Positions 724 to 16,988 of a DNA stretch of 64,000 nt are shown one piece after another. The DNA is from Bacillota bacterium (GTDB taxonomy: Bacteria; Bacillota; Limnochordia; Darwinibacteriales; DTU012). How positions within the stretch are numbered: position 1 is the stretch's first letter; each line of letters opens with the position of its first letter. The stretch is taken from positions 30,771 through 94,770 of the forward strand of contig JAAYNP010000031.1 of the NCBI GenBank assembly GCA_012520795.1. The letters are read 5' to 3'. Position numbers and translations under genes: made by a program. The notes below the pieces were generated by a model, which was given only the letters and a program-made list of their open reading frames with translations, was not told the origin of the DNA and searched no databases.

Positions 724-736
724 GAATCAACTTCCC

Positions 737-1759: not shown

Positions 1760-1761
1760 CT

Positions 1762-2901
1762 CTACCCCTTCCTTCCTAGTTGTTCCACCAGGGACAACGC
1801 AGTTGCTCTTGCATGTTCATCGGCTGCAGCCAACTGCGCCAAATCAGGATCCAAGACCAACTGATGTTTATCAATCACTTCCTTGACAATCTCCGCTATA
1901 TCGGTAAAAGCAACCCTGCCTTCCAAAAATGAATTCACAGCAACTTCATTGGCTGCGTTTAGAGCGGCGGGCATGCTCCCTCCAGTTTTTCCAGCCGTTA
2001 CCGCAAGTTCCAGACAGGGAAACCGCTCAGGGTTGTATCTCATAAACGTAAGTTCCGGTAAAGAGGCGAGATCAAGTCTGGAAACCAGTGATTTCCCAAT
2101 CTTAGGATAAGTCAGCGCACGCTGAATCGGCAAACGCATATCGGCTACAGCCATCTGCGCCAAAACTGAGCCATCGACAAACCGCACCATTGAGTGGACT
2201 ATACTCTGGGGGTGTATTACCACATCAATCTGATCATAACCGAGAGAGAACAGCCAATGGGCTTCAATAATCTCAAGGCCCTTGTTCATGAGCGTGGCTG
2301 AATCTACAGTAATCTTCCCTCCCATTTGCCACGTAGGATGTTTGAGTGCCTGTTCAACCGTGACTCTGCTCAAATCCTTCGGCTCGTACAAAAACGGCCC
2401 GCCAGAAGCAGTTAGAATTGCTGACTCGACGGTTTCAGAGTTTTTCCCGTCGAGAATCTGCCAGAGTGCACTGTGTTCTGAGTCAATTGGCATAATCTGA
2501 GAACGGTAAGGTGCCAGCAGATGGCCTCCCGCAACCAACGCTTCTTTACTGGCAAGAGCCACCTTTTTACCTGCTTGCAGTGCTCTCAATGTAGGAGCCA
2601 AAGCGGCAAACCCCACTACAGCCACAACCACTATATCCACATTCGGGTCAGCGGCCAATTCCAGCAAACCTGCTTCTCCATGGGCTGTTTTGATGTTAAA
2701 CCTGTTTCCTAATTGCCTGGCGCTGTCCCGATCACTGACTACCACGATCTGAGGTTGACAGTTTTTGATCTGCCGGGCCAAGCCTGCAATATCCCTATAC
2801 GCGCTTAAGCCATAGACTCGATAGCCTGTTAAGTGCTGTATGACCTGAAGCGTTTGAGTGCCAATGGAACCTGTTGAACCTAGTATAGCAACATTAATCA
2901 T
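1762..2901 (-). CDS. dxr: 1-deoxy-D-xylulose 5-phosphate reductoisomerase
   Basis: N-terminus MINVAILGSTGSIGTQTL is the Dxr NADPH-binding motif; 379 aa. Confidence 0.95.
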   Translation of the reverse strand: MINVAILGSTGSIGTQTLQVIQHLTGYRVYGLSAYRDIAGLARQIKNCQPQIVVVSDRDSARQLGNRFNIKTAHGEAGLLELAADPNVDIVVVAVVGFAALAPTLRALQAGKKVALASKEALVAGGHLLAPYRSQIMPIDSEHSALWQILDGKNSETVESAILTASGGPFLYEPKDLSRVTVEQALKHPTWQMGGKITVDSATLMNKGLEIIEAHWLFSLGYDQIDVVIHPQSIVHSMVRFVDGSVLAQMAVADMRLPIQRALTYPKIGKSLVSRLDLASLPELTFMRYNPERFPCLELAVTAGKTGGSMPAALNAANEVAVNSFLEGRVAFTDIAEIVKEVIDKHQLVLDPDLAQLAAADEHARATALSLVEQLGRKG

Positions 2902-2933
2902 TAATCTATTCCTTCCTGCGGCATATTTTAAGC

Positions 2934-3938
2934 CTATGCAGCGTCACTGACAATGAGATAGACCGCCTTGCAGAAAATCATTGCCATTGGGCCCAATAAA
3001 ACCCCGCTGAACCCCATCAGCTTTACACCGATATATACTGCGGCCATTGTCGATAAAGGGTGAAGCCCGATCTCACCGCCTATCAGCTGTGGTTCACTCA
3101 GCTGCCGCACCAACAGCAGAAGCAACCATACAAATCCGATGAAAACTGCCCGTTGAACCAACCCCCGGGCTAGGTTGTAAAGTATAACTGGAATAAATAC
3201 GCCGCTCGGCCCGATCATTGGGAACAGATCCAAAAAACCCGCAATAAAGCCCAACACCCAGGCATATTGGTGATCTACAATCAGAAATCCACTGACAGCA
3301 ATACATATTGATGTCCACATCAGAAACAGCTGTGCCTTGATATACGCAAAAACCCCCTGCAGCAGCGTATGTTTCAATCCAAAAACACTTTTTTGCCATC
3401 TGCGGGGAAGCTGCGAGGCAACAAAGTTAACGATGGCTCTCTTGTCCCTGCTGACAAAGAAGGCAGTCATCGCAGCGATCATCCAGGAAAACAGCAGGGC
3501 TGGAACCCTTTTGACCAGGCTGAACAACTCGCCGATAATCGCAAGGCAGAACTGGCTGATACTGTTGATTGCAGCCGGAATGAGGTTCTGAACAGCACCC
3601 GGCAGCCTGCTGATCAACTGATTGATCCTGGCAAAGTCTTGAAAAGGATCTGCACGAAGCAGCTGAAATGAGTCAAGCAGTTGGCCCAGTTCATACCAAA
3701 AACCAACTACGGCAATTGCGACAAAAAGCAAAAGACCGCCAAATATACAAACCACTAATAACAAGGATGCAATTTGACGTGGACAACCTTTGTGTTCGCA
3801 TGAATCAACCGCCGGATCGATCATGGTGGCAATCAAGATGCCCAGTAAAAACGGAGCAATATAGCCAAACAACAGCTTTACAGCACAAAACCCCACCAGC
3901 GTCACAATAATGAGCAAAACCTTAGGGTTGAGGTTCAT
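2934..3938 (-). CDS. AI-2E family transporter / sporulation integral membrane protein YtvI-like (UPF0118)
   Basis: 334 aa polytopic membrane protein whose overall pattern resembles the PerM/YtvI family. It sits between cdsA and dxr. Confidence 0.55.
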   Translation of the reverse strand: MNLNPKVLLIIVTLVGFCAVKLLFGYIAPFLLGILIATMIDPAVDSCEHKGCPRQIASLLLVVCIFGGLLLFVAIAVVGFWYELGQLLDSFQLLRADPFQDFARINQLISRLPGAVQNLIPAAINSISQFCLAIIGELFSLVKRVPALLFSWMIAAMTAFFVSRDKRAIVNFVASQLPRRWQKSVFGLKHTLLQGVFAYIKAQLFLMWTSICIAVSGFLIVDHQYAWVLGFIAGFLDLFPMIGPSGVFIPVILYNLARGLVQRAVFIGFVWLLLLLVRQLSEPQLIGGEIGLHPLSTMAAVYIGVKLMGFSGVLLGPMAMIFCKAVYLIVSDAA

Positions 3939-3967
3939 ATTGACCTCCCGGCTAATGGGGCCATTTT

Positions 3968-4750
3968 TCAGGACAAGAAAGGCATATATTTCAAGGTCAA
4001 ATACAGCAGTGGTAAGACAAACAACATTGAATCGAACCGGTCAAGAATGCCGCCATGGCCCGGTAAGATATTCCCAGAATCTTTGACAGCTCGTTCCCGC
4101 TTCATTGCTGATTCTACCAAATCTCCCGTTTGGCCGGCTATGGAAAGGCAAACGCCAAGCAGCAAGAGGACAACAGGCTGACGCCCCAGGTATACAGCAA
4201 AAGCAAGAGCTGTCAATCCTGCTGCCGCTACCCCGCCCAACGCCCCTTCCCATGTTTTGTGCGGGCTGATGGCCGGTGCCAGTTTTGTCTTTCCCAACGC
4301 CAGGCCGACAAAATACGCACCGGTGTCTGTGGCCCAGGTAACCCCGATGCCAAACAGTGCCCACCCAAACCCATAATCTGCGTGGACGATCCACAAAAAA
4401 CTGAACAAACCAACAATATAAAAAACTGCAGCCATGTGCCACATTTGACTTAACGGCCTATATGTCGTAAAGGTTGCCCTTGTCAGTAAATAGATCAATT
4501 GGAGCACAAACCAAACCCACAGGAAAGAGCCGTACAATCCATTATATGCCAGATACAACAAGGATAGCCCTGCCGGAATCAGGTAGTCCCAAAAGACTGG
4601 ATTTTCATAAAGCCTGCTGAATTCATACAAGCCTACAACGGCTAAAACCGCCAGTGCGACCTTGAGATAGATGCCTCCGAAGTAAATTACCGCCAAAAAC
4701 ACGGGAATAGTCACCACAGCTGTCCAAATCCTAGCAGTCAACCCCGTCAC
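3968..4750 (-). CDS. cdsA: phosphatidate cytidylyltransferase
   Basis: 260 aa membrane protein with C-terminal CdsA signature (...KTWEGALGG...DRFDS...). uppS-cdsA synteny. Confidence 0.85.
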   Translation of the reverse strand: MTGLTARIWTAVVTIPVFLAVIYFGGIYLKVALAVLAVVGLYEFSRLYENPVFWDYLIPAGLSLLYLAYNGLYGSFLWVWFVLQLIYLLTRATFTTYRPLSQMWHMAAVFYIVGLFSFLWIVHADYGFGWALFGIGVTWATDTGAYFVGLALGKTKLAPAISPHKTWEGALGGVAAAGLTALAFAVYLGRQPVVLLLLGVCLSIAGQTGDLVESAMKRERAVKDSGNILPGHGGILDRFDSMLFVLPLLYLTLKYMPFLS

Positions 4751-4757
4751 CTACCAG

Positions 4758-5465
4758 CTACTTATCTTTGATGCTGCCGTATCGGCGTTCCCGCTGCCTA
4801 AAACTGGCAATGGCTTTTTCAAATTCCTCGATGTCAAAATCCGGCCAAAGTGTATCGGTAAAATACCACTCAGCATAAGCGCCTTGCCACAGCAAAAAGT
4901 TGCTGGCCCGCAATTCCCCACCGGTGCGAATAATCAGATCCGGATCGGCGAAACCTTTGGTAAACAAGTACTGGGCAAAAACATCCTCTGTTATTTCGTC
5001 CACTGTAAACTGCCCTTGTCGAACCGCAGACGCTAAAGCACGAGCAGCATGGACTATTTCCATGCGCCCCCCGTAGTTGAAGGCCACATTTAGGAACAAC
5101 CGGTCGTTGTGCCTGGTGCGTTCTTCCGCCGTTTGACAAATCCGCTGCTGCCTTGGGGACACAGAGGTGACATCACCTAGAATCTTTATCCGCACACCAT
5201 TGGCAATCAATTCATCCAGATCATCTGAAAAAGTCTGCTCCATCAGCTGCATCAAAGATTTCACTTCTCTTACAGGCCGTTTCCAGTTTTCTGTGCTGAA
5301 GGCGTAAACCGTCAAGACCTTAATACCTATGTCCCCGCAACACTTTACAATCCGTTTCAGCGATTTTACACCTTCCTGGTGCCCGTAATAACGGGGCATC
5401 CGCCTTTCCTTGGCCCATCTCCCGTTTCCGTCCATGATGATTGCTATGTGATTGGGAATAGTCAT
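4758..5465 (-). CDS. uppS: undecaprenyl diphosphate synthase (isoprenyl transferase)
   Basis: HIAIIMDGNGRWA motif near N-terminus; 235 aa. Confidence 0.95.
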   Translation of the reverse strand: MTIPNHIAIIMDGNGRWAKERRMPRYYGHQEGVKSLKRIVKCCGDIGIKVLTVYAFSTENWKRPVREVKSLMQLMEQTFSDDLDELIANGVRIKILGDVTSVSPRQQRICQTAEERTRHNDRLFLNVAFNYGGRMEIVHAARALASAVRQGQFTVDEITEDVFAQYLFTKGFADPDLIIRTGGELRASNFLLWQGAYAEWYFTDTLWPDFDIEEFEKAIASFRQRERRYGSIKDK

Positions 5466-5491
5466 CGCGATCCTCCCACAGCCCCGTGGTG

Positions 5492-5709
5492 TTAATCTAC
5501 TGACCAGTCGCAGGTGGCACAGATTAGCTCAAGGCAATCAGAAGCGGAGCGAATTCCAATAATCCGCAATTCGGAGTGATCATCAGCTGTGACTTCTCTT
5601 TTTCCGGGCGGTGCAGTGAGCACAACCTTGTATGGCTGCTCTTCTTCGTATAAGTATTCGGCTGCCTCATCGAGCGGAAATCCGATAATCAACGTCCAAT
5701 CGACAGTGC

Positions 5710-5713
<4 letters not shown>
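5492..5713 (-). CDS. hypothetical small protein (73 aa) between frr and uppS; TTG start overlapping frr stop
   Basis: It fills an otherwise 244 bp frr-uppS gap. An AAGGAG-like motif lies about 11 nt upstream of the TTG. No recognisable family. Confidence 0.25.
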
Positions 5714-7060
<1,347 letters not shown>

Positions 7061-7062
7061 TT

Positions 7063-7089
7063 AAAAAAGGAACACCAAAAAGGTGCTCC
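7063..7089 (-). terminator. rho-independent terminator directly after tsf stop (approx coords)
   Basis: On the minus strand an 8-bp stem (GGAGCACC/GGTGTTCC) with a 5-nt loop is followed by TTTTTT. Confidence 0.5.
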
Positions 7090-7743
7090 TTACTGCTTCA
7101 TCTGCGCCATTACCTCAGCAGCGAAGTCTTCCTGACGTTTCTCGATCCCCTCGCCGCGTTCAAACCTGACAAAGCGGCGAATACTGATGTTTTCGCCGAT
7201 TTTCGATATTTTTTCATGAAGCAGTTGTTGTACTGTAATGTCCGGGTCCTTCACAAACTGCTGCTCTAAGAGACAGGTATCGGCGAAGAATTTCTCGATT
7301 CTACCATCTACAATCTTATCCACAATATGTTCCGGTTTACCTTCATTGAGAGCAGCCGCGGCAAGGATCTCCCTTTCTTTTTTCACTACAGCCTCAGGGA
7401 CATCCTCTCGCGATACATACTCAGGGCTAGAAGCCGCAATGTGCATGGCAATATCCTTCACCAATTGTTTAAACTCTTCCGTTTTGGCAACAAAATCAGT
7501 TTCACAATTGACTTCAACCAAGACGCCAATCCGTCCGCCCATATGCACATAGGCGTCAACCAGGCCTTCAGCTGCGATTCGCCCTGCTTTTTTGGCAGCT
7601 TTGGACAAACCTTGTTCCTTCAAGTAATCAAAGGCAGACTCAAGATCACCATTAGTCTTGACCAGGGCGTTTTTGCAATCCATCATTCCAGCGCCCGATC
7701 TTTGACGCAGTTCTTTGACCATTTCTGCAGTTATCTTTGCCAT
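7090..7743 (-). CDS. tsf: elongation factor Ts
   Basis: 217 aa; [27 protein letters not shown] is the EF-Ts N-terminal UBA-like motif. Confidence 0.95.
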
Positions 7744-7772
7744 CAGAATCCCTCCTTTTGTCTTGCTTTCAT

Positions 7773-7817
7773 AAAAAAAGGGAGCATCACGAGAGTGAAA
7801 CCCCTCAAGCTGCTCCC
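7773..7817 (-). terminator. possible attenuator/partial terminator between rpsB and tsf (approx)
   Basis: GGGAGCA...TGCTCCC stem with an internal small hairpin, followed by a T7 run on the minus strand. The loop is long, so this is weak. Confidence 0.3.
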
Positions 7818-7829
7818 CTCGTGCTAGAC

Positions 7830-8633
7830 TTATTCTTCATCATCGCCTATGTCAGGTTCGTCAAGAACATCATCTGCCATGGGAAGATCATCATCCAGAA
7901 CCTTGGCTTTAGAATCCTCATCAACCGGATCAGCTTCCACCTTGCCTTCCTTTGCCTCAATAACAGCGTTTGCTATGGTCGCGGTCAGCAGTTTCACGGC
8001 TCGGATTGCATCATCATTGCCGGGGATCACATAGTCGATTTCATCAGGATCACAGTTAGTATCCACAATCGCCACGATTGGAATACCCAATTTGCGGGCC
8101 TCAGCCACTGCAATCCGTTCTTTGCGCGGATCAACCACAAACAGCGCTCCAGGCAGTTTTCGCATTTCCCGGATCCCACCAAGGAAGCGGTTTAGTTGAA
8201 ACAGTTCTTTCTCCAGCTTCAGAACTTCCTTCTTGGGCAGTACATCAAAAGAACCGTCTCCTTTCATTCTTTCCAGTTCCTGCAACCGTGAAATGCTGCG
8301 GTTGATGGTTTTGAAGTTGGTCAACATCCCACCAAGCCACCGCTGGTTCACATAGAACATGCCGCAGCGTTCCGCTTCATCCTGGATAGTCTCCTGCGCC
8401 TGTTTCTTTGTGCCTACAAACAGCACAGCCTTCCCATCGGTAACCAAATCACGGATGAAATTGTAGGCTTCCTCTACTTTTTTTACAGTTTTTTGCAGAT
8501 CGATGATATAGATCCCGTTGCGTTCTGTGAAAATGTATGGAGCCATTTTTGGGTTCCAACGCCTGGTTTGATGACCAAAGTGAACGCCAGCCTCCAACAG
8601 ACTTTTCATGGTGATAACGGCCAAGTCGCCCAC
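7830..8633 (-). CDS. rpsB: 30S ribosomal protein S2
   Basis: 267 aa, S2 sequence with an acidic C-terminal tail. Confidence 0.95.
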
Positions 8634-8761
8634 CTCCTCCCTTTTGTTTAGTCCTCCGCAGTTTGCATCTATGGCCGAGACCTGTAAGGCACACCTCGAA
8701 CGATATTCAACTGCGTGTGTTTTGACACCGTTTTAAAGTATAGCACAGATGCCAAGCTTTA

Positions 8762-9148
8762 TCAATGTGTAATTTCGCTATTTTTCAGTTGTCTAATCAA
8801 TTCAACTTCGCCGATACCTAATCCTAGCTTTTGGGCGACCTCAGCTGTATTATATCCTTGATTAAGCAATTCCAGAACCTGCCCGGCTTTGGCCTGGTTG
8901 ATTCGGAAATCGTTTCGCGATGGGCGTAAAACTTGGCGGGCATTCCTCTTCCATTTTTCAATCTCCTGCTGGATTTCTTGCTGTTTCATGATCAACTGGT
9001 CCATGTATTCCTCAAAAAGGGCATCGTAGGCTTTGAATTCAGTTTGAAAATCTGGTTTCACGTCCCGTTCGCCGGTACGATTGTTACTGATCAAAGATAT
9101 CAGCAAGCCACTTGCCAGACCAAGCAAAAAAATCCCTAAGCGGTTCAC
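8762..9148 (-). CDS. hypothetical membrane-anchored protein with C-terminal LuxR/sigma-region-4-like HTH; last gene of the fla/sigD operon (SwrB-position)
   Basis: GTG start preceded by GGAGGA. It has an N-terminal TM helix (LGIFLLGLASGLLISLI), a coiled-coil and a C-terminal VLELLNQGYNTAEVAQKLGLGIGEVELIRQL HTH-like segment. It is translationally coupled to the upstream ORF. Confidence 0.45.
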   Translation of the reverse strand: MNRLGIFLLGLASGLLISLISNNRTGERDVKPDFQTEFKAYDALFEEYMDQLIMKQQEIQQEIEKWKRNARQVLRPSRNDFRINQAKAGQVLELLNQGYNTAEVAQKLGLGIGEVELIRQLKNSEITH

Positions 9149-9163
9149 TGCTGATCCTCCGTC

Positions 9164-9421
9164 CTAGATCTTGATATCCAGCCGGTTACCCGAAGACCTG
9201 TGCCGCTTTTGGCGGGTTTTCTCTTCAGAACTCTTCCTTCGCTGATTGCGCAGGCGATGAGCTCTGGGACTGCGGTTCACCTTTTTTGGCATTGCGGCAT
9301 GCTGCTGTGCCACGACGCTAGCCAGCTTTCCAGCTCCAGTCGGGTCGCCTTCCCGCAGAACTTTCGGGATTTGATCCGTTCTGCCAATCAACACTTGCAT
9401 GTCCGGAAATTTGATTGACAT
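9164..9421 (-). CDS. hypothetical small basic protein (85 aa) coupled to sigD
   Basis: ATG preceded by AAGGAGGG at about 9 nt. The gap after the sigD stop is 24 nt. The C-terminal half is very Arg/Lys-rich. No family recognised. Confidence 0.4.
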   Translation of the reverse strand: MSIKFPDMQVLIGRTDQIPKVLREGDPTGAGKLASVVAQQHAAMPKKVNRSPRAHRLRNQRRKSSEEKTRQKRHRSSGNRLDIKI

Positions 9422-9445
9422 CGGCCGTTCCCTCCTTATCAGTGT

Positions 9446-10207
9446 TTAAACAAACTTAAGTTTTGACCGGAGGGCTCTGATAGCTTGACTGTGAATCTGG
9501 CTGATGCGTGATTCGGATACGGCAAGTATATGGCCAATCTCTTTCAGGGTGAGCCCTTCATGGTAATACAGGGACACTACCAAACGCTGCTTCTCCTCAA
9601 GTTCGTCGACTGCCGCAGCCAGTTCCTGCAGCGTTTCTTGATCAATAAGTTCCTGATCAATAACTGCCTCAGGATCATTGATCGTATCGAGAAGGGTAAT
9701 AGAATCTGCGTCAGAATCGCCCGTCAGATGATCATCCAGGGACAGCAAGGAAATGTTTCTTACTTGATCGAGTGTTTCATAGTATTTCTCCAGGGGCATC
9801 TGGAGCGCAGATGCCACTTCCCGTTCAGTCGGTGTTCGGCCCAGTTCATGTTCCAATTTCATAATTGCCTGATCGATCCTTTTTGCCTTATTCCGGACGC
9901 TTCTCGGTATCCAATCGGTAGAACGCAGCCCGTCGATAATTCCACCGCGAATCCGTACACTGGCATAGGTTTCAAACTTGATATCTCTGTTCAGGTCATA
10001 TTTTTCAATAGCATCAATCAGGCCAAATACGCCATAGCTGATTAAATCGTGAAACTCTACATTATCGGGAAGATGAATAGCAATCCTGCCGGCTATGTAC
10101 TGTACCAGGGGCAGATACTCTTCAATGATCTGCTCTCTTGCGGAAAGATCATTATTAAATTTATACTGCTGCCACAGGTCAGTAAGCTCAACGCTTTCTC
10201 TATCCAT
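9446..10207 (-). CDS. sigD: flagellar sigma factor SigD/FliA (sigma-28)
   Basis: Sigma-70 regions 2 and 4 are present (...EYLPLVQYIAGR..., ...LTLKEIGHILAVSESRISQI...). I prefer the internal start MDRESVELTDLW, which gives 253 aa, because the upstream part overlaps the PilZ gene. It sits at the end of the fla operon. Confidence 0.85.
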   Translation of the reverse strand: MDRESVELTDLWQQYKFNNDLSAREQIIEEYLPLVQYIAGRIAIHLPDNVEFHDLISYGVFGLIDAIEKYDLNRDIKFETYASVRIRGGIIDGLRSTDWIPRSVRNKAKRIDQAIMKLEHELGRTPTEREVASALQMPLEKYYETLDQVRNISLLSLDDHLTGDSDADSITLLDTINDPEAVIDQELIDQETLQELAAAVDELEEKQRLVVSLYYHEGLTLKEIGHILAVSESRISQIHSQAIRALRSKLKFV

Positions 10208-10220
10208 GCCCACCAACTTC

Positions 10221-10868
10221 CTAAGCCTTTTCGTCAATCTTCTTACGATAGATTTCGATCTGGCGTTTATAAACGTATTGAATGATCTCCAGACGAGTGC
10301 GTTCATCAATATTTTCAAATATACAGCCGTACTCAAAACCATATTCGGTCCGGGCCCCACGCAAAATCCTGCAGTATAACCGGATTATCGTCCCTCCAAT
10401 TGGAAGATCTACATAGATCTGTGAACCCAACTCCAGTTCTTCCTGTGTGACACAGAGCAGCCCGCCGCCGCTGATGTCTTTAACGCGGCAGGGAATATCT
10501 CCGTTGTAGGTTGCATCAATATAAACACTGACTCTGACATAATCTCTCAGCTGGATCTTCTGCCATTCAGTCGTTAGGTTTACCAACAAGACAGGGACAT
10601 TATTGTCCCTGAAGCGCCGTTCAACCACGCCGGCAGCTTCATACCGCCCCTGATGAACCACATCATAATTGTAAAACGATATGGTCACCATCGTTTCGCG
10701 CCTGATGGGCACGATATCTCCGTCCACAATCGGAGCCGCTAACAACAAGTAGCCTCGCTCTTCATCCAGGTCTTCAACGCGTGTATGATAGACTCTCCGA
10801 TCTTCACCATCGCCGACGGCTAGTTCAACTCTTTGGTTAGGGCTAATTAGCAAAAGTATTCCTCCCAA
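10221..10868 (-). CDS. PilZ-domain flagellar brake protein (YcgR/MotI-like)
   Basis: PilZ c-di-GMP motifs (...RRE..., DISGGGLL) are present. It lies immediately downstream of flhG. Confidence 0.75.
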   Translation of the reverse strand: MGGILLLISPNQRVELAVGDGEDRRVYHTRVEDLDEERGYLLLAAPIVDGDIVPIRRETMVTISFYNYDVVHQGRYEAAGVVERRFRDNNVPVLLVNLTTEWQKIQLRDYVRVSVYIDATYNGDIPCRVKDISGGGLLCVTQEELELGSQIYVDLPIGGTIIRLYCRILRGARTEYGFEYGCIFENIDERTRLEIIQYVYKRQIEIYRKKIDEKA

Positions 10869-11703
10869 AAGGCATTCTTACATTGGCCGTTACCTGGTTG
10901 GCGCTTAGAAAAGCTTTGGTCAGCAGATTCTCAGCAACACTATACACAGAGCGGCTTGCACTTGATCCCGGATACGCCAAAAGGAAAGCCTGCTGCGCTC
11001 TCACCGCAGATACAACTTTCGGATCAAAAAACACACAGCCCACGTATTTGACTTCGCGCTGCAGGAATCGGCTTGTCATCATGTTGATCTTCTGCCACAC
11101 CAATAATCCTTCATTGGGTGAGCGGACCATATTGGCTAAAATGGTGATCTCTTTTTCCGGCTCCCGCTGCAAAATCGTTTTAATCAGCCCATAAGCGTCA
11201 GCGATACTGCTGGGCTCAGAAGTCGCCACAACCAGCACTTCGCTGACAGCCATGATTACACGGATCACTTTCCGCGCTAAACCGGCACTTGTGTCGACGA
11301 TTAAGAAGTCAAGTTCCCCGTTCAAATGGATTGCAGCGGAAATCAGGCGGTCCAAGCCCATTTGACTAATATTCGCCAGCTCATAGACACCAGAACCTCC
11401 GGCAATTACCTTAAGCCCCAGCGGCCCCTCAATTACGATATCACTTAGTTCTCTTTTTCCATTGACAATATCAAGCAAAGTGTATTTTGGGTAAACACCC
11501 AAGAGCAAATCGGCGTTGGCCAGGCCTAGATCTCCATCGAGCAATGCTACTTTCTGATTCATGTTTATTAGAGCCAAAGCCAAATTAATCGCAATGTTTG
11601 TCTTTCCCACACCGCCTTTACCGCTCGTTACGGCAACAGTGCGGGCAACAGTGCATGGATCTCGATTAACAAGGTCGCGCAGCCGCTGTGCTTGGTCGTT
11701 CAT
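10843..11703 (-). CDS. flhG: flagellar number regulator FlhG (MinD/ParA-type ATPase, YlxH)
   Basis: Deviant Walker A VTSGKGGVGKTNIAINLA; flhF-flhG synteny. Confidence 0.85.
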   Translation of the reverse strand: MNDQAQRLRDLVNRDPCTVARTVAVTSGKGGVGKTNIAINLALALINMNQKVALLDGDLGLANADLLLGVYPKYTLLDIVNGKRELSDIVIEGPLGLKVIAGGSGVYELANISQMGLDRLISAAIHLNGELDFLIVDTSAGLARKVIRVIMAVSEVLVVATSEPSSIADAYGLIKTILQREPEKEITILANMVRSPNEGLLVWQKINMMTSRFLQREVKYVGCVFFDPKVVSAVRAQQAFLLAYPGSSASRSVYSVAENLLTKAFLSANQVTANVRMPFGRNTFAN

Positions 11704-11705
11704 TG

Positions 11706-12314
11706 CTAGCCCCCCAAAACCATACTCGTCAGCTGATCATTTTCTGCAATTTCTATATCATCTGGCACACTTTGCCCATTTGTAATAAAAGCGATCGGCA
11801 CTCGGGCATAATCCGGCGCTTCAACCAAGATACCAAAACTTTGTGTTTCATCAAGTTTGGTGATGATTAGATTATCAATTTCCAGTTCCTTAAACGCATC
11901 AATAATTGCCATCAAATCGTTGCTTTTTGTTGTTGCACTAATCACTAGATACTTCTCCACACTTAGGTCATTAAAAGCCATATTCAACTCTGACATCCGT
12001 TCACGGTTATGATGGCTGCATCCATAAGTATCAATTAGGATTAAGTCCATATCTGCATAAGCATTCAATGCTGAGGCCAATCCACTGCTGGAATAAACGG
12101 CGGTTAGGGGTACATTCATAATATCAGCGTATTTTTTCAGGTGTACCACTGCTGCAATCCGGTAGGTATCCAAAGTGATCAGCCCAACTTTCTTGCGGGC
12201 AATAAGATGGTAATTCGCCGCAAGTTTCGCAATGGTGGTAGTTTTGCCGACACCGGTGGGGCCTATAAATGCCACCACTTTCTGTACTCCAGTAAACTCC
12301 CAGGGTGTATCCAC
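11706..12314 (-). CDS. flhF: flagellar biosynthesis GTPase FlhF, C-terminal NG/GTPase fragment (gene split by frameshift)
   Basis: GTG start. It carries [22 protein letters not shown] and TKLDET SRP-GTPase motifs and the FlhF C-terminus ITNGQSVPDDIEI. The reading frame continues upstream without a stop into the N-fragment region. Confidence 0.7.
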   Translation of the reverse strand: MDTPWEFTGVQKVVAFIGPTGVGKTTTIAKLAANYHLIARKKVGLITLDTYRIAAVVHLKKYADIMNVPLTAVYSSSGLASALNAYADMDLILIDTYGCSHHNRERMSELNMAFNDLSVEKYLVISATTKSNDLMAIIDAFKELEIDNLIITKLDETQSFGILVEAPDYARVPIAFITNGQSVPDDIEIAENDQLTSMVLGG

Positions 12315-12340
12315 CTGTATTAAACTGCTGATCTCAGTTC

Positions 12341-12745
12341 TCAGCTTTTTTTCAACAACTCGGTCTCGTTCCAGTCTTGTTTGGGTACCTGTTGTAAAAC
12401 CGTTTTCACAATTCTAACGGCCAGAGCATGGGACAGATCCTGGCTGGATAACAGTTGATATAGTAACTGGATGGCACTGCTGCTGTCTGCAACGCCCAAA
12501 TCCTGATCCTGAACGGCTGCCGGCTTCTGGTTATGACTAGAAGTAGTGAGAACTTGTTTTCTGCCGGGCTGGGCATTTGGATCAACTGCCCCCAATACCT
12601 CGTACTGCTTCTTGCCGAACAGCCCAAGAAAGCGGCCTTTCTTCACAATTTTGGTCTGCAGGATTATGGCATCGTCCCCAAATTCAGCCTTCATCTTCGT
12701 CACTGCATCTGGCAATGTCTCCCCGCGGAATTTTTTAATCCTCAT
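12341..12745 (-). CDS. flhF: FlhF N-terminal (B-domain) fragment, terminated at an A7 run
   Basis: MRIKKFRGETLPDAVTKMKAEFGDDAIILQTK matches the FlhF N-terminus. It ends LLKKS* at the sense-strand sequence gaaaaaaagc, and the -1 frame reads on into the GTPase fragment. Confidence 0.65.
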   Translation of the reverse strand: MRIKKFRGETLPDAVTKMKAEFGDDAIILQTKIVKKGRFLGLFGKKQYEVLGAVDPNAQPGRKQVLTTSSHNQKPAAVQDQDLGVADSSSAIQLLYQLLSSQDLSHALAVRIVKTVLQQVPKQDWNETELLKKS

Positions 12746-14804
12746 GCGGCCACTTCACCACCCCTACAGTCTGCACCTGGATTTCCGGGACAATTTCGTT
12801 ATATGACAGCACTATCAAACTGGGAAAATTCCTTTCCGTCAAGCGTCTCAGGGCCAGCCTGACCCGTGGAGAGACCAGGATAACAGGCTGGACCAGATTG
12901 TTTGCATCCAGTGCAGACTTGAGTGCGCCAAAAAGACGCTGCAGTATGCGCGGATCTATTGATATGACGTTGCCCCGTTCTGTCTGCTCAATCCCTTCTG
13001 CAATCACCGTCTCCCACTGCGGCTCAAGCGTCAGCACCAATAGAACATCATTTTCCGCATATTGACGGCAAAGCTGTCGTGCCAATGCTTCCCGCACGTA
13101 TTCTGTAAGATAATCCAAATCTTTGCTGACGGGAGCTGCATCAGCCAGTGATTCAAGAATCGTTACCAGGTTGCGGATAGGAACCTGCTCTCGCAGAAGA
13201 GTCTGAAGCACTTTTTGAATCTCGCCGATAGTCATCAGGTTCGGGACCAGTTCATTGATTACAGCTGAATAATCACTCCGCAAGCTGTCAAGCAAGGTTT
13301 GCACCTCTTGCCGGCCCAGCAACTCGTGAGCGTGATTTCGGATAGTCTCCGTCAAATGAGTTGCCAGAACACTTGGTGAATCCACGACAGTGTAGCCGTT
13401 CATTTCCGCCCGTTCTCGGTGTTCTTCAGAGATCCAGAGGGCATCAAGGCCAAATGCAGGTTCTTTTGTAGGTTCACCAGGTACTGGTTCAGTTACATTT
13501 CCCGCGTCCATGGCCAGATAATGGTTGAGCATCAGCTGCCCCCTGCCTACTTCTATTCCTTTGATTTTTATCACATATGAGTTTGGCGGCAGCTGAAGGT
13601 TATCCCGGATTCTGATCACGGGAACAATGATCCCAAGCTCCAAAGCACATTGACGTCTGATCATTGTGATGCGATCGAGCATATCTCCCCCTTGTTCGCT
13701 GTCCACCAAGGGAATCAGGCTGTAACCGATTTCCAATTCGATCATGTCAACCTGCAAGAGCGAAAGGACGCTGTCTGGTTGGCGCCTTTCTTCAAGCTCA
13801 CGCCTGGCTTCATCGGCAATAGCACTTGTCTCGACACTGGCTTGCTCCCGAAAGAGCGCATACCCCAAAAGGCCAAACAAGCCGCTGAGAATAAAAAACG
13901 GAACGAAAGGCAAGCCGGGAACCACCGCAAACACCATCAGGACCCCGCTGGTGATCATTAACGTTTTTGGACTGCTTAACAGCTGAATGTTGAGATCATG
14001 GCCAAGATTGTTTTCGCTGGCAGCCCTGGTGACAATAATTCCGGTGGCGGTACTCACCAGGAGCGCGGGGATTTGTGATACCAATCCGTCACCCACGGTC
14101 AAAAGGGTGTATGTGTTGAGTGCACGCTGGAAATCATAACCGCGGGAGAGGATGCCGATCAACAGCCCGCCTACAAAGTCTATCAAAACGATGATAATCC
14201 CGGCAATGGCGTCGCCTTTGATAAATTTCGACGCACCGTCCATGGCACCGTAAAAGTCTGCTTCCCGTTGGATCTGCACTCGCCTCTGCCTAGCTTCCGC
14301 TTCTGATATCAAGCCGGCATTGAGATCCGCATCAATGCTCATTTGTTTGCCAGGCATTGCGTCAAGAGTGAACCTAGCCGCTACTTCCGCAACCCGTTCC
14401 GAGCCTTTGGTAATAACGATAAACTGAACTATAACCAGAATCAAGAAAATAACAAATCCAACGATATAATTGCCGCCGACTACAAAATCGCCAAACGCAC
14501 TAATGATATTTCCGGCATATGCACGAAGCAGAATTAGGCGGGTGGATGAAACACTCAGTGCAAGCCGAAACAGAGTCAGCAGCAACAAAAGCGTTGGGAA
14601 AATCGAGATTTCGAGTGGCTCCCGGATGTTAATGGACAATAAGAGCACCAGTAATGACAAGCTGATGTTGCATGCAAATAGAATATCCAAAAGGAATGGC
14701 GGTAATGGCAGTACCATCATGATTACAACCATAATCACTGCAATTACCACATAGAGATCCCTGTATTGCCCTAATTTGTGCAAGGGAGCGGTACCATTAA
14801 TCAT
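12735..14804 (-). CDS. flhA: flagellar type III export apparatus protein FlhA
   Basis: 689 aa with an N-terminal 8-TM region and a large cytoplasmic domain with FlhA/LcrD family signatures. Confidence 0.95.
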   Translation of the reverse strand: MINGTAPLHKLGQYRDLYVVIAVIMVVIMMVLPLPPFLLDILFACNISLSLLVLLLSINIREPLEISIFPTLLLLLTLFRLALSVSSTRLILLRAYAGNIISAFGDFVVGGNYIVGFVIFLILVIVQFIVITKGSERVAEVAARFTLDAMPGKQMSIDADLNAGLISEAEARQRRVQIQREADFYGAMDGASKFIKGDAIAGIIIVLIDFVGGLLIGILSRGYDFQRALNTYTLLTVGDGLVSQIPALLVSTATGIIVTRAASENNLGHDLNIQLLSSPKTLMITSGVLMVFAVVPGLPFVPFFILSGLFGLLGYALFREQASVETSAIADEARRELEERRQPDSVLSLLQVDMIELEIGYSLIPLVDSEQGGDMLDRITMIRRQCALELGIIVPVIRIRDNLQLPPNSYVIKIKGIEVGRGQLMLNHYLAMDAGNVTEPVPGEPTKEPAFGLDALWISEEHRERAEMNGYTVVDSPSVLATHLTETIRNHAHELLGRQEVQTLLDSLRSDYSAVINELVPNLMTIGEIQKVLQTLLREQVPIRNLVTILESLADAAPVSKDLDYLTEYVREALARQLCRQYAENDVLLVLTLEPQWETVIAEGIEQTERGNVISIDPRILQRLFGALKSALDANNLVQPVILVSPRVRLALRRLTERNFPSLIVLSYNEIVPEIQVQTVGVVKWPHED

Positions 14805-14826
14805 GTCATACCCTCCAACCCATTAG

Positions 14827-15927
14827 CTACAGTGCTTTCCTCCTGAGCCGGTAGACAAATGCCAACACTTCAGCAACTGCCGCATAGAGCTCTGCAGGAA
14901 TCTGCTGTCCAACCTCGACCGAACGGTATAAAGCACGGGCCAATGGCTGATTCTCCACTAAAGGGACACCATGCTGATTTGCCAGCTCACGAATTTTCTC
15001 AGCGACAATTCCCGCACCTTTGGCTACCACTTCAGGTGCTGACATCCTGTCGGCTTCATACAGTAAAGCAACTGCGATATGAGTAGGGTTTGTGATTATC
15101 ACATCTGCTGTTGGAACTGCCTGCATCATCCGCCTTGATGCGAGTTCCCGCTGTTTCTGGCGGATTCGGGAACGAACCAGGGGATCCCCTTCCAGCTGCT
15201 TGAATTCCTCTTTAACCTCATGCCTGGTCATGCGGATATTTTTCTCGAACTCCCACTTCTGGTAGAAATAGTCTAATACGGCCAAAATCAGCAGAGTAAG
15301 CCCAAGCGCCTGAACAAGGGCAAAAATTGAATTGCCAACAAGCAAGAAGCTGTTGGAGATATCCAGCGCTGCCAGATTGGTTAGCCACGGTAAGCGGTTG
15401 CGAACTTGTGTAAATACAATCCAACCCACTATCACAACCTTGAGAACCGATTTGAGACATTCCACAATGGCCCGTTTGGAAAACAGGCGTTTCATCCCTT
15501 CAAAAGGATTGATCCGGTTTAACTGAGGCTGGATCACGGATGGGTTGAACATCAGCCCTACTTGGAAGTACTGGGCAGCAAAACTGACCAAAAGCAAAAC
15601 CCCAAATATTGGCAAAAGCACAAAGGCAATTTCCCTTAGCGCAACCAAGCAAAAACCATAAGCCATGTCTGCATTGCCATTCCAACTGGCGGCATTTGCC
15701 AGAAAGTGCCGCACAAGGGCATCGAGCCGCTCCACCCCCCCGCTGATGGCAAATTTTATGACGTAGAATCCCACCAGGATTACAAGTGCTGGCCCAATCT
15801 CTCCACTCTTGGCAACTTGGCCTTTCTTGCGTACTTCTTCTCGCTTATGAGGAGTGGCGCTCTCTGTTTTCTCTGCAAAGAGCTGCAAGTCAAATTTGAA
15901 CCTGATCGAATCGAAACAATTTTTCAT
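14827..15927 (-). CDS. flhB: flagellar export apparatus protein FlhB
   Basis: 366 aa; NPTH autocleavage motif (ITNPTHIAVAL). Confidence 0.95.
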   Translation of the reverse strand: MKNCFDSIRFKFDLQLFAEKTESATPHKREEVRKKGQVAKSGEIGPALVILVGFYVIKFAISGGVERLDALVRHFLANAASWNGNADMAYGFCLVALREIAFVLLPIFGVLLLVSFAAQYFQVGLMFNPSVIQPQLNRINPFEGMKRLFSKRAIVECLKSVLKVVIVGWIVFTQVRNRLPWLTNLAALDISNSFLLVGNSIFALVQALGLTLLILAVLDYFYQKWEFEKNIRMTRHEVKEEFKQLEGDPLVRSRIRQKQRELASRRMMQAVPTADVIITNPTHIAVALLYEADRMSAPEVVAKGAGIVAEKIRELANQHGVPLVENQPLARALYRSVEVGQQIPAELYAAVAEVLAFVYRLRRKAL

Positions 15928-15936
15928 GTTGGTCTC

Positions 15937-16985: not shown

Positions 16986-16988
16986 CTC

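What the first reader, a model, noticed from the sequence alone, without database searches (positions are those of the whole stretch)
8762..9421. Two uncharacterised small ORFs translationally coupled to the end of the sigD operon
Immediately after sigD (24-nt gap containing AAGGAGGG) lies an 85-aa ORF whose C-terminal half is extremely basic (many R/K). After a further 15-nt gap with GGAGGA comes a 128-aa ORF with one N-terminal TM helix, a coiled coil and a C-terminal segment resembling a LuxR/sigma-region-4 HTH (VLELLNQGYNTAEVAQKLGLGIGEVELIRQL). Their position corresponds to swrB in B. subtilis, but neither looks like SwrB or FlgM. A membrane-tethered HTH protein co-transcribed with the flagellar sigma factor is a plausible undescribed regulator or anti-sigma-like partner of late flagellar gene expression.
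Basis: partly seen in the sequence, partly recalled or inferred. Interest (0 to 1): 0.5.

Follow-up and report, generated by a model that had tools for sequence, protein, structure and literature searches.

The report
SwrB homologue plus unknown small flagellar protein

Summary
Both ORFs exist exactly as described, on the minus strand: sigD 9446..10207, an 85-aa ORF ("X") 9164..9421 and a 128-aa ORF 8762..9148. The gaps are 24 nt and 15 nt, each holding a Shine-Dalgarno sequence.

- It passes Pfam DUF6115, the family that public annotation assigns to Bacillus subtilis SwrB.
- It matches a Bacillaceae SwrB profile (hhalign 94.7%).
- It has the same architecture: an N-terminal transmembrane helix, a long helix and a three-helix C-terminal domain.
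- It sits in the same place as B. subtilis swrB: sigD-swrB-rpsB-tsf-pyrH-frr-uppS-cdsA.

It is therefore a new member of a known kind, a flagellar type III export activator, and not an anti-sigma factor.

X is genuinely uncharacterised, with no Pfam, NCBIfam or PDB match. It is under purifying selection. It lies in the flagellar operon just after sigD in all 38 distinct loci examined, which are mostly Limnochordia MAGs.

All 38 sequences share an N-terminal MSIKFPDxQVLxxR motif, a basic and probably disordered middle, and a C-terminal hD(I/V/L)(R/K)x pentapeptide. FliK proteins were the only other ORFs ending the same way, and in Salmonella FliK those last five residues are needed for export switching. 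An action at the export gate is my leading hypothesis for X, and it is untested.

The parts
9446..10207 (-). sigD/fliA, the flagellar sigma-28 gene (253 aa). The true start is ATG 10207, not the GTG at 10360 that the ORF listing reports.
   Evidence: NCBIfam TIGR02479 FliA_WhiG scores 268.7 bits (cut-off 189.6), and Pfam Sigma70 regions r2, r3 and r4 all match. Homologues are 253 aa.
9430..9437 (-). Shine-Dalgarno AAGGAGGG inside the 24-nt gap between sigD and X.
   Evidence: Read directly from the sequence. A GGAGG-type motif occupies the same gap in most of the related loci.
9164..9421 (-). X, an 85-aa protein of an undescribed family. It has a conserved N-terminal motif, a basic and probably disordered middle, and a conserved C-terminal pentapeptide.
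   Evidence: No Pfam, NCBIfam or PDB match. It has 19 word-indexed homologues. A full HMMER scan of 1.84 billion cluster representatives found only 15. A genome scan found 31 species-level loci. Window X against six relatives gives pS 0.59-1.00 and pN 0.14-0.37. AlphaFold2 gives pLDDT 63 and pTM 0.23.
9380..9421 (-). N-terminal motif of X, residues 1-14 (MSIKFPDMQVLIGR). The family pattern is M-S-I-K-F-P-D-[MLF]-Q-V-L-x-x-R.
   Evidence: It is nearly invariant in alignments A1 and A7. A loosened version of the pattern is present in 38 of 38 distinct sequences. Variation sits at the third codon position, so the constraint is on the amino acids.
9167..9181 (-). C-terminal pentapeptide of X, LDIKI. 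The family pattern is [LIVF]-D-[IVL]-[RKL]-[AIVG] at the very end of the protein, and the commonest form is IDLRA.
   Evidence: Present in 38 of 38 distinct sequences. Of 354 six-frame ORFs in the window, only X and FliK end this way.
9155..9160 (-). Shine-Dalgarno GGAGGA inside the 15-nt gap between X and the SwrB-like gene.
   Evidence: Read directly from the sequence. In relatives this gap is -4 to 27 nt and usually holds a GGAGG-like motif.
8762..9148 (-). SwrB-family gene (128 aa, GTG start), a member of Pfam DUF6115.
   Evidence: Pfam PF19610 scores 37.7 bits against a cut-off of 27. hhalign against Bacillaceae SwrB gives 94.7% probability. An HMM built only from Bacillaceae SwrB scores it 31.9 bits. 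The surrounding gene order matches B. subtilis.
9071..9142 (-). Predicted N-terminal transmembrane helix of the SwrB-like protein (residues 3-26).
   Evidence: The Kyte-Doolittle 19-residue mean peaks at 1.98 from residue 4. AlphaFold2 predicts a helix at residues 3-26.
8768..8896 (-). Conserved three-helix, HTH-like C-terminal domain of the SwrB-like protein (residues 85-127: ...QVLELLNQGYNTAEVAQKLGLGIGEVELIRQL...).
   Evidence: This is the region aligned to SwrB residues 121-160. Window L117 lies in the column of SwrB L155, where L155P impairs SwrB function (bioRxiv 10.1101/2021.04.30.442225). Foldseek places it on LuxR/NarL and resolvase HTH domains at about 1 A, without significant E-values.
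8737..8765 (-). Sigma-70-type promoter-like site (TTGATA, 17-nt spacer, TATACT with an upstream TG). It overlaps the stop codon of the SwrB-like gene and is probably the rpsB promoter.
   Evidence: Consensus scan only. No terminator-like hairpin lies on the minus strand between 8762 and rpsB.
23246..24994 (-). fliK, the hook-length control gene of the same operon. Its protein ends ...FLRVDLRA, the same class of C-terminal pentapeptide as X. The N-terminal start is uncertain.
   Evidence: It matches the Salmonella FliK T3S4 domain in PDB entry 2RRL at E 7e-7. The C-terminus was read and the motif was counted.

Best explanation
The two ORFs are the last two genes of the early flagellar (fla/che-type) operon of an uncultured Limnochordia-type Bacillota bacterium.

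**The 128-aa gene.** It is the positional and sequence counterpart of Bacillus subtilis swrB. SwrB is a single-pass membrane protein whose bulk faces the cytoplasm. It raises the probability that a newly built basal body becomes competent for type III export of rod and hook subunits. Hook completion then relieves FlgM inhibition of SigD, so SwrB raises SigD-dependent late gene expression only indirectly. The HTH-like C-terminal domain is the conserved core of the family and is more likely a protein-binding module than a DNA-binding one.

**The 85-aa gene X.** It encodes a lineage-restricted, basic and probably disordered protein, made next to SigD and SwrB. I propose that X also acts at the export gate. 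Its strictly conserved C-terminal pentapeptide (hD[IVL][RK]x) is of the same type as the C-terminal pentapeptide of FliK. In Salmonella FliK those last five residues, at the end of a disordered tail, are needed for the FliK-FlhB-dependent switch of export specificity. X would dock its tail on the same receptor site as FliK, and its invariant N-terminal 14 residues would bind a second partner.

**What is shown and what is inferred.**
- Shown: both genes are real and conserved; the 128-aa protein belongs to the family; the gene order matches B. subtilis; X and FliK share the motif.
- Inferred: the SwrB function is transferred from B. subtilis; the whole mechanism of X is inferred.
For: **The 128-aa protein is a SwrB-family protein.**
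- Pfam DUF6115 scores 37.7 bits against a cut-off of 27.
- Proteins that NCBI and UniRef name 'swarming motility protein SwrB' carry PF19610, and some are also named 'DUF6115 domain-containing protein'.
- BLASTP against SwrB P0031 gives 38% identity over 39 residues, E 2e-7.
- hhalign of the window clade against 17 Bacillaceae SwrB proteins gives 94.7% probability and E 5.6e-8.
- An HMM built only from Bacillaceae SwrB scores the window protein 31.9 bits.
- The predicted architecture is the same: transmembrane helix, long helix, three-helix C-terminus.
- The gene order is the same. B. subtilis has sigD-swrB-rpsB-tsf-pyrH-frr-uppS-cdsA. The window has sigD-X-swrB-like-rpsB-tsf-pyrH-frr-(73-aa ORF)-uppS-cdsA.

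**What SwrB does.**
- Its C-terminal domain is cytoplasmic (bioRxiv 10.1101/2021.04.30.442225).
- The relative FlgW of Campylobacter jejuni binds FliO (PMC4073491). FlgW and SwrB are listed as one component in PMC9321776.

**X is a real flagellar-operon gene.**
- The substitution pattern is that of a coding sequence under purifying selection.
- X lies in the flagellar operon just after sigD in all 38 distinct loci. In L038 a FapA gene comes between sigD and X.
- The arrangement persists as SigD identity falls to 47% and X identity to 28%.

**X and FliK share a C-terminal motif.**
- All 38 distinct X sequences end in the motif, most often IDLRA.
- The window's own FliK ends VDLRA.
- E. coli and Klebsiella FliK end VDIFA.
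- Four of five complete FliK tails recovered from metagenomes end VDYLA, IDYLG, IDYFA and LDYLV; the fifth, L043, ends VNYLA.
- In the window, 2 of 354 six-frame ORFs end with the motif: FliK and X. Among 471 unique ORFs of at least 120 aa from all loci, 7 do: six FliK and one extended reading of X, and no other protein.
- In Salmonella FliK, residues 353-405 are disordered and the last five residues are important for export switching. FliK's C-terminal domain binds the cytoplasmic domain of FlhB (PMC10965912).
Against: **SwrB part.**
- Significant sequence similarity to Bacillus SwrB is limited to about 40 C-terminal residues.
- B. subtilis SwrB itself scores 26.1 bits, just under the cut-off of my Pfam copy.
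- His13 in the SwrB transmembrane helix, needed for punctate localisation, is not conserved. The MAFFT alignment places it opposite window G10.
- Of the juxtamembrane residues L48, F51 and L53, only two have hydrophobic or aromatic counterparts, and that part of the alignment has no statistical support.
- The acidic linker of about 60 residues in Bacillus SwrB is missing.
- No function was tested here.

**X part.**
- The FliK resemblance is a five-residue linear motif found after the fact.
- X has no other similarity to FliK and no T3S4 domain.
- One metagenomic FliK tail, L043, ends VNYLA, with N where the motif has the otherwise invariant D.
- I could read the FliK C-terminus of only one X-bearing genome, the window itself, so co-variation is untested.
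- No interaction could be modelled.
- The AlphaFold2 model of X has low confidence. That fits a disordered protein but does not prove one.
Confidence: 0.6

Rival explanations
1. X is a SigD-binding protein, either a FlgM-like anti-sigma factor or a sigma chaperone. It would be made next to SigD from the adjacent cistron and hold SigD inactive or stable until the basal body is complete.
For: X lies 0-28 nt downstream of sigD in most loci. In the Tepidanaerobacteraceae locus L038 it stays in the sigD operon although no SwrB-like gene is adjacent. Its size (81-106 aa) and predicted disorder resemble what is established for FlgM. Anti-sigma genes often sit next to their sigma gene.
Against: None of 20 family members matches Pfam FlgM or any anti-sigma family at E up to 1. 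The conserved parts of X are the extreme N- and C-termini, not a C-terminal helical sigma-binding region as in FlgM. In L038 a 496-aa FapA gene separates sigD from X. Whether these genomes carry a canonical flgM elsewhere could not be checked.
Confidence: 0.15
2. X is a dedicated partner of the SwrB-like protein. It would bind the cytoplasmic helix or HTH-like domain of SwrB as an adaptor or regulator, and the pair would work as one two-component export activator.
For: X is immediately followed by a DUF6115 gene in every locus long enough to show it except L038. The gaps are -4 to 27 nt, and in L014 and L040 the two genes overlap by 4 nt. The window-clade SwrB lacks the roughly 60-residue linker of Bacillus SwrB, and a separate polypeptide could stand in for it.
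Against: L038 has X after sigD and FapA with no DUF6115 gene in the locus. Bacillus SwrB works without any X, because sigD and swrB are adjacent with a 28-nt gap. The Bacillus linker is acidic and X is basic, so the two are not equivalent. No interaction evidence exists.
Confidence: 0.15
3. The 128-aa protein is a membrane-tethered DNA-binding transcription regulator, or an anti-sigma-like factor, whose LuxR or sigma-region-4-type HTH acts directly on late flagellar promoters or on SigD.
For: The C-terminal three helices superpose on LuxR/NarL/GerE, resolvase and sigma-region-4 HTH domains at about 1 A. Sub-threshold Pfam matches to GerE, HTH_23 and HTH_7 appear for the window protein and for SwrB.
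Against: All HTH matches are below the curated cut-offs (GerE scores 12.3 bits against 23.5), and no Foldseek E-value is below 0.1. The protein belongs to the SwrB family. Genetics in B. subtilis places SwrB upstream of FliF, FliP and FlhA in hook secretion. SwrB increases flagellar number post-transcriptionally (bioRxiv 10.1101/2021.04.30.442225), and its effect on sigma-D-dependent expression is attributed to hook completion antagonising FlgM (PMC4526659).
Confidence: 0.07
4. One or both ORFs are spurious, meaning chance open frames in the sigD-rpsB spacer.
For: Both are short, X has no database family, and its AlphaFold2 model has low confidence.
Against: For X, window-to-relative comparisons give pS 0.59-1.00 against pN 0.14-0.37, and variation in codons 2-20 sits at the third position. 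Both ORFs keep the same order, with Shine-Dalgarno motifs, in dozens of species-level genomes. The 128-aa ORF passes a curated Pfam threshold.
Confidence: 0.02

Closest known systems
SwrB (YlxL) of Bacillus subtilis, the flagellar type III export activator
   Same: Both are the last gene of the fla/che operon, after sigD and before rpsB-tsf-pyrH-frr. Both have an N-terminal single transmembrane helix, a long juxtamembrane helix, and a conserved C-terminal domain with the pattern 'QG..s..EIA.kL..G..E(I/V)EL'. That domain contains the Leu, SwrB L155, whose change to Pro impairs function. Both are assigned to Pfam DUF6115.
   Different: The window protein is 128 aa against 167 aa, because the poorly conserved acidic linker is absent. 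His13 in the transmembrane helix is not conserved. Significant similarity is limited to about 40 residues. A conserved extra gene, X, lies between sigD and the swrB homologue. [quoted passage not shown]
FlgW (CJJ81176_0198) of Campylobacter jejuni, and the DUF2802 proteins of proteobacterial flagellar clusters
   Same: The literature describes FlgW as a distant relative of SwrB and lists the two as one component (2021 preprint; PMC9321776). FlgW is needed for normal flagellar assembly and co-purifies with FliO (PMC4073491). The window protein and its clade give sub-threshold DUF2802 matches over the same C-terminal domain: 20.6 bits for the window protein and up to 29.3 bits for relatives, against a cut-off of 33.5.
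   Different: All DUF2802 scores are below the cut-off. I did not have the FlgW sequence, so no direct comparison was made. The genomic setting differs.
The C-terminal tail of the hook-length control protein FliK
   Same: Both have a disordered region ending in a terminal pentapeptide of the form h-D-hydrophobic-x-small. X ends LDIKI, IDLRA or LDIRA. The window's FliK ends VDLRA, E. coli FliK ends VDIFA, and four other Firmicutes-type FliK tails end (V/I/L)DY(L/F)(A/G/V). In Salmonella the last five FliK residues are important for export switching (PMC10965912).
   Different: X has no T3S4 (Flg_hook) domain and no long ruler region, and it shows no detectable homology to FliK outside the pentapeptide. 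It is 85 aa against 375-587 aa. One metagenomic FliK tail ends VNYLA rather than with the D form. The resemblance is a short linear motif and does not make X a family member.
FlgM, the anti-sigma-28 factor
   Same: X is a small protein of about 90 aa, probably disordered, encoded with flagellar genes and functionally linked to sigma-28. The comparison with FlgM's own properties rests on established knowledge.
   Different: No member of the X family matches Pfam FlgM. Conservation in X lies at the two termini, whereas the sigma-binding region of FlgM is its C-terminal half (established knowledge).
Flk (RflH) of Salmonella
   Same: Flk is a single-pass membrane protein that regulates the flagellar export apparatus. 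The SwrB authors name it as a functional analogue of SwrB (2021 preprint).
   Different: No sequence relationship was tested or claimed. It is an analogy only.

Membership tests
SwrB / Pfam DUF6115 (PF19610) | Profile match at or above the curated Pfam gathering score | tested here: met
   The window 128-aa protein scores 37.7 bits against a cut-off of 27, aligning residues 49-120 to profile positions 61-132 of 134. The founder, B. subtilis SwrB, scores only 26.1 bits in this Pfam copy. It is listed under PF19610.6 in the precomputed column, and some SwrB orthologues are also named DUF6115 by NCBI and UniRef.
SwrB / Pfam DUF6115 (PF19610) | Direct similarity to experimentally studied B. subtilis SwrB | tested here: met
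   BLASTP gives 38% identity over 39 residues, E 2e-7. hhalign gives 94.7% probability and E 5.6e-8 over 40 columns. A Bacillaceae-only HMM scores it 31.9 bits. Only the C-terminal domain is matched.
SwrB / Pfam DUF6115 (PF19610) | Single N-terminal transmembrane helix with the bulk of the protein on the C-terminal side | tested here: met
   The Kyte-Doolittle mean is 1.98 over residues 4-22 and there is no second hydrophobic segment. AlphaFold2 predicts a helix at 3-26. Orientation (C-terminus inside the cell) is inferred from SwrB and was not tested.
SwrB / Pfam DUF6115 (PF19610) | Position as the terminal gene of the fla/che operon, after sigD and before rpsB | tested here: met
   The window order was read, and the B. 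subtilis locus L050. The one difference is that X is inserted between sigD and the swrB homologue.
SwrB / Pfam DUF6115 (PF19610) | Functionally important residues of B. subtilis SwrB: H13, L48, F51, L53 and L155 | tested here: inconclusive
   L155 corresponds to window L117, in a column invariant among the 17 Bacillaceae SwrB sequences and nearly invariant in the combined alignment A6. In the MAFFT alignment A6, H13 falls opposite G10 (not conserved), L48 opposite F45, F51 opposite Y48 and L53 opposite D50. That region has no statistical support.
SwrB / Pfam DUF6115 (PF19610) | Activity: increases hook number and activates flagellar type III export | not testable with these tools
   This needs genetics, either complementation of B. 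subtilis swrB or deletion in a relative.
LuxR/GerE-type or sigma-region-4 HTH transcription factors | Profile match to a DNA-binding HTH family at its curated threshold | tested here: not met
   GerE scores 12.3 bits (cut-off 23.5), HTH_23 scores 12.6 (24.6) and HTH_68 scores 11.6 (27). The fold resembles these domains at about 1 A RMSD, but every Foldseek E-value is 0.1 or higher.
FlgM anti-sigma-28 factor (for X) | Match to the FlgM family profile | tested here: not met
   The window X has no Pfam or NCBIfam match at E up to 1. None of 20 family members matches FlgM or any anti-sigma family.
FliK hook-length control protein (for X) | T3S4 / Flg_hook C-terminal domain | tested here: not met
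   No Pfam match of any kind. The X profile scores non-significantly against seven FliK proteins.
FliK hook-length control protein (for X) | Disordered C-terminal tail ending in an h-D-hydrophobic-x-[A/G/V/I] pentapeptide | tested here: met
   All 38 distinct X sequences end this way. So do 7 of the 8 complete FliK C-termini read; L043 ends VNYLA. No other protein does among 354 window ORFs and 471 background ORFs. This is a shared short motif and does not make X a FliK family member.

The most novel reading that the evidence does not exclude
[quoted passage not shown] It would be a small disordered protein that uses a FliK-type C-terminal pentapeptide to engage the same receptor site as FliK, on the cytoplasmic domain of FlhB or FlhA. 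It would thereby set or time export competence or the switch to late substrates, working with SwrB. If so, the FliK tail is a portable short linear motif used by more than one protein, and SigD activity in these bacteria is tuned by a gene adjacent to sigD acting through the secretion checkpoint.
Probability: 0.2. Interest if true: 0.65.

Novelty: new variant of a known kind. Interest (0 to 1): 0.4.

Why it matters
**SwrB.** The SwrB papers describe the protein as confined to Bacillus. Here a clear family member occupies the identical chromosomal slot in a deeply branching Bacillota class. Comparison with it shows which part of SwrB is conserved: the transmembrane helix, the juxtamembrane helix and the HTH-like C-terminal domain that contains L155. 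The long linker is dispensable. This gives SwrB studies a minimal natural variant to work with.

**X.** It is a compact and strongly constrained new small-protein family that is always found in flagellar operons. Its terminal motif, shared with FliK, yields a cheap and specific test: delete five residues and measure hook length, FlgM secretion and FlhB binding. If the hypothesis holds, it would add a new player to the long-studied substrate-specificity switch. If it fails, X is still an unannotated flagellar gene worth naming in Limnochordia, which are abundant in anaerobic digesters.

Tried and rejected
**Searches that found nothing.**
- The window X had no Pfam or NCBIfam match, and neither its 20-member family (Pfam) nor the family profile (PDB sequences) matched anything meaningful.
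- A full HMMER scan of 1.84 billion cluster representatives with the X profile found only 15 representatives. The family is narrow or diverges too fast to follow.
- The X profile against seven FliK proteins showed no similarity beyond the terminal pentapeptide.
- Rfam found nothing at gathering thresholds over the whole window, and nothing at E up to 1 over 8500-9600. An RNA element therefore does not explain the conservation.
- A sigma-28 promoter consensus search (TAAA-N15-GCCGATA, one mismatch) found nothing near 8700-10300.
- Literature searches for DUF6115, for the peptide MSIKFPD and for VDIFA returned nothing.

**Things I could not do.**
- The Foldseek afdb50 library was not available.
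- Whether X-bearing genomes have a canonical flgM could not be checked.
- FliK C-termini of other X-bearing genomes could not be read. FliK lies about 13.8 kb from X, beyond the 10-kb flank limit.
- The metagenome scan for FliK returned only seven distant loci. One of them had an implausible short tail (L049) and one did not end in the motif (L048).

**Ideas considered by eye and dropped.**
- Resemblance of X residues 16-23 (DQIPKVLR) to the FlhG 'DQAxxLR' activator motif. The spacing is off by one residue, and the stretch is not conserved in distant members.
- Resemblance of 'MQVLIGR' to the first strand of CsrA. There is no profile support.

**One caveat about method.** All later comparisons use database sequences P0025-P0139.
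Full report
**1.

All the genes concerned lie on the minus strand. sigD ends at 9446. A 24-nt gap containing AAGGAGGG precedes an ATG-initiated 85-aa ORF at 9164..9421, which I call X. A 15-nt gap containing GGAGGA precedes a GTG-initiated 128-aa ORF at 8762..9148.

The ORF listing reports sigD from a GTG at 10360. All homologues are 253 aa, which places the real start at ATG 10207, just after the stop of an upstream PilZ/YcgR-type gene.

The second half of X has 16 K/R in 43 residues and a pI of 12. The 128-aa protein has one hydrophobic segment at residues 4-22.

**2. Setting.**

The window reproduces the B. subtilis chromosome region around the fla/che operon. The gene names below, other than those scanned, were assigned by reading the translations and not by profile search.
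- A codY-like gene is followed by flgB, flgC, fliE, fliF, fliG, fliH, fliI, fliJ, fliK, flgD, flgE, motA, motB, fliL and fliM/Y.
- Then come fliO, fliP, fliQ, fliR, flhB, flhA, flhF, flhG, a PilZ gene and sigD.
- Then come X, the 128-aa gene, rpsB, tsf, pyrH, frr, uppS and cdsA.

A look-up of genuine B. subtilis SwrB gives cheA-cheW-cheC-cheD-sigD-swrB-rpsB-tsf-pyrH-frr-uppS-cdsA, with sigD and swrB 28 nt apart. The 128-aa gene therefore occupies exactly the swrB slot.

The closest database relatives are labelled Limnochordia or unclassified Bacillota or Firmicutes MAGs. Judging by their isolate names, many come from anaerobic digesters.

**3. The 128-aa protein is a SwrB-family protein.**
- It passes Pfam DUF6115 at 37.7 bits against a cut-off of 27. 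It also gives weaker hits to DUF2802 and to several HTH families.
- A profile search retrieved proteins that NCBI and UniRef name 'swarming motility protein SwrB'. All of those shown carry PF19610 in the precomputed column, and some are also named 'DUF6115 domain-containing protein'. All later tests use the retrieved database sequences.
- BLASTP against SwrB P0031 gives 38% identity over 39 residues, E 2e-7.
- hhalign of the window clade (5 sequences) against 17 Bacillaceae SwrB sequences gives probability 94.7% and E 5.6e-8 over 40 columns.
- An HMM built only from the Bacillaceae sequences scores the window protein 31.9 bits.
- B. subtilis SwrB itself scores 26.1 bits in my Pfam copy, just below the cut-off, although it aligns to positions 13-131 of the 134-position model. 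The window protein is therefore a more typical DUF6115 member than the founder.

The AlphaFold2 model (pLDDT 74.6) shows a transmembrane helix at 3-26, a long helix at 34-74 and a three-helix C-terminal unit at 85-127. Foldseek places that unit on LuxR/NarL/GerE, resolvase and sigma-region-4 HTH domains at about 1 A RMSD, but with E-values of 0.1 or higher. It does not show a DNA-binding role.

The shared C-terminal block includes the Leu that corresponds to SwrB L155. The L155P change impairs SwrB function (bioRxiv 10.1101/2021.04.30.442225).

The differences are these.
- There is no equivalent of the poorly conserved linker of about 60 residues.
- His13 is not conserved.
- The juxtamembrane alignment is uncertain.

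**4. What SwrB is known to do (literature).**
- SwrB is a single-pass membrane protein. [quoted passage not shown]
- Suppressors of a swrB mutation raise FliP levels or alter FliG. FliF, FliP and FlhA act downstream of SwrB.
- Reduced sigma-D-dependent expression in swrB mutants follows from failure to complete hooks and thereby antagonise FlgM (PMC4526659).
- The C-terminal bulk of the protein is cytoplasmic. SwrB forms puncta fewer in number than basal bodies (2021 preprint).
- FlgW of C. jejuni is described as a distant relative and binds FliO (PMC4073491; FlgW and SwrB are listed together in PMC9321776). A FliO-like ORF lies upstream of fliP in the window at 17660..17986.
- The 2015 paper states that SwrB is conserved only in the genus Bacillus. 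The present locus, like the Pfam family, shows a much wider distribution.

**5. X is a real gene of an undescribed family.**

No Pfam, NCBIfam or PDB sequence match exists for X or for its family. The word-indexed search gave 19 homologues down to 44% identity. An exhaustive HMMER scan of 1.84 billion cluster representatives gave only 15 at E up to 1e-3, including diverged members at about 25-33% identity. A scan of 185,579 species genomes found 31 loci, all MAGs.

The coding signature is clear.
- Window X against six relatives gives pS 0.59-1.00 and pN 0.14-0.37.
- In codons 2-20 the second codon position varies 0.06 and the third 0.52.
- The extreme N-terminal conservation is therefore a constraint on the protein and not on the nucleotide sequence.

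The gene order is conserved.
- Every locus long enough to show it has sigD, X and a DUF6115 gene in that order, except L038. The gaps are mostly 0-28 nt and -4 to 27 nt, with Shine-Dalgarno motifs.
- In L040 the trio persists although rpsB is no longer downstream.
- In the Tepidanaerobacteraceae MAG L038, X follows sigD and a FapA (DUF342) gene, and no DUF6115 gene is present.
- Identity to the window across these loci falls to 47% for SigD, 28% for X and about 27% for the SwrB-like protein.

AlphaFold2 gives pLDDT 63 and pTM 0.23 for X, which fits a largely disordered protein.

All 38 distinct sequences have three features.
- The N-terminal motif M-S-I-K-F-P-D-[MLF]-Q-V-L-x-x-R, counted with a loosened form of the pattern.
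- A K/R-rich middle (31% K+R).
- A terminal pentapeptide [LIVF]-D-[IVL]-[RKL]-[AIVG], most often IDLRA.

**6. The FliK lead.**

While surveying the operon I saw that the window's FliK ends ...FLRVDLRA. Its identity as FliK is supported by a match to PDB entry 2RRL at E 7e-7.
- Of 354 six-frame ORFs of at least 50 aa in the window, only FliK and X end with the X-family pattern, whose per-position frequency is 1.2e-4.
- E. coli K-12 and Klebsiella FliK end GVDIFA.
- Five further complete FliK tails from metagenomes end VNYLA, VDYLA, IDYLG, IDYFA and LDYLV.
- With the generalised motif hD[LIVYF]x[AGVI] at the C-terminus, 7 of 471 unique background ORFs of at least 120 aa match. Six are FliK and one is an extended reading of X. 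No other protein matches.
- In Salmonella FliK, residues 353-405 are disordered and the last five residues are important for the export-specificity switch. FliK's C-terminal domain binds the cytoplasmic domain of FlhB (PMC10965912).
- X has no other similarity to FliK.

X therefore resembles a FliK tail without the ruler and without the T3S4 domain. From this I derive the working model that X engages the export gate. The model rests on a post-hoc five-residue motif and on no interaction data, so I give it about 0.2-0.25. The rivals are SigD binding and SwrB binding, at about 0.15 each.

**7. Verdict.**

The 'membrane-tethered HTH regulator' is a SwrB homologue. That makes it a new member of a known kind, and it corrects the literature's view that SwrB is restricted to Bacillus.

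X is a conserved, unannotated flagellar-operon gene with an unusual and testable motif. Taken together, the locus is a new variant of the known sigD-swrB operon end. Interest is moderate.

No evidence supports a direct anti-sigma role for either protein.

**8. Limits.**
- All functional statements about the 128-aa protein are transferred from B. subtilis.
- All hosts are uncultured.
- Expression was not examined.
- 'Translational coupling' is not demonstrated.
- flhF in this window is frameshifted. This particular genome copy may carry an assembly error or a defective flagellar locus.

Noticed in passing
window 11706..12745 (-), junction near 12340: flhF is split over two reading frames. The 347-aa FlhF of relative L001 aligns residues 1-152 in frame -3 and residues 131-347 in frame -2. 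The junction contains an A7 homopolymer (GTTGAAAAAAAGCT). This is either a sequencing or assembly indel or a genuine frameshift that would inactivate flhF.
   Followed up: partly
window 5492..5713 (-): A 73-aa ORF lies between frr and uppS and overlaps the frr stop by 4 nt. An ORF of 72-76 aa with no Pfam hit sits at the same place in L001, L003, L005 and L037. It is absent from the B. subtilis locus L050. This is a second clade-specific small gene of unknown function.
   Followed up: no
window 23246..24994 (-), last five codons 23249..23263: FliK of this operon ends in VDLRA. FliK proteins from E. coli, Klebsiella and four of five metagenomic Firmicutes-type loci end in the related h-D-hydrophobic-x-[A/G/V] pentapeptide, and the fifth ends VNYLA. 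No other ORF in the background sets does, apart from X.
   Followed up: yes
window 10221..10868 (-): A PilZ/YcgR-type gene (PilZNR plus PilZ domains) sits between flhG and sigD. B. subtilis has cheB-cheA-cheW-cheC-cheD there. The same arrangement is conserved in most of the related loci looked up (L001-L005, L037), but L039 and L040 have no PilZ gene.
   Followed up: no
window 8634..8765 (-): A promoter-like site (TTGATA, 17-nt spacer, TATACT with an upstream TG) overlaps the stop codon of the SwrB-like gene. It is followed by a leader of about 100 nt before rpsB. No terminator-like hairpin separates the flagellar operon from rpsB, and the leader has no Rfam match.
   Followed up: partly
L038 2499..4288: In a Tepidanaerobacteraceae MAG the diverged X homologue (95 aa, MSMRPVDLQVIVPR...HIDVRI) follows sigD and a 496-aa FapA/DUF342 gene. 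There is no DUF6115 gene, and the next genes are Rrf2-iscS-nifU. X is therefore tied to the end of the sigD operon rather than strictly to SwrB.
   Followed up: partly
window 1..64000: No Rfam family reaches its gathering score anywhere in the 64-kb window, even though it contains rpsB, rplS, rpsP, ffh and other genes that carry known leaders in some Firmicutes.
   Followed up: no
window 17660..17986 (-): A 108-aa ORF with one hydrophobic segment lies immediately upstream of fliP and is probably FliO (FliZ). FliO is the protein reported to bind the SwrB relative FlgW. The greedy ORF picker missed it in favour of a longer antisense ORF.
   Followed up: no
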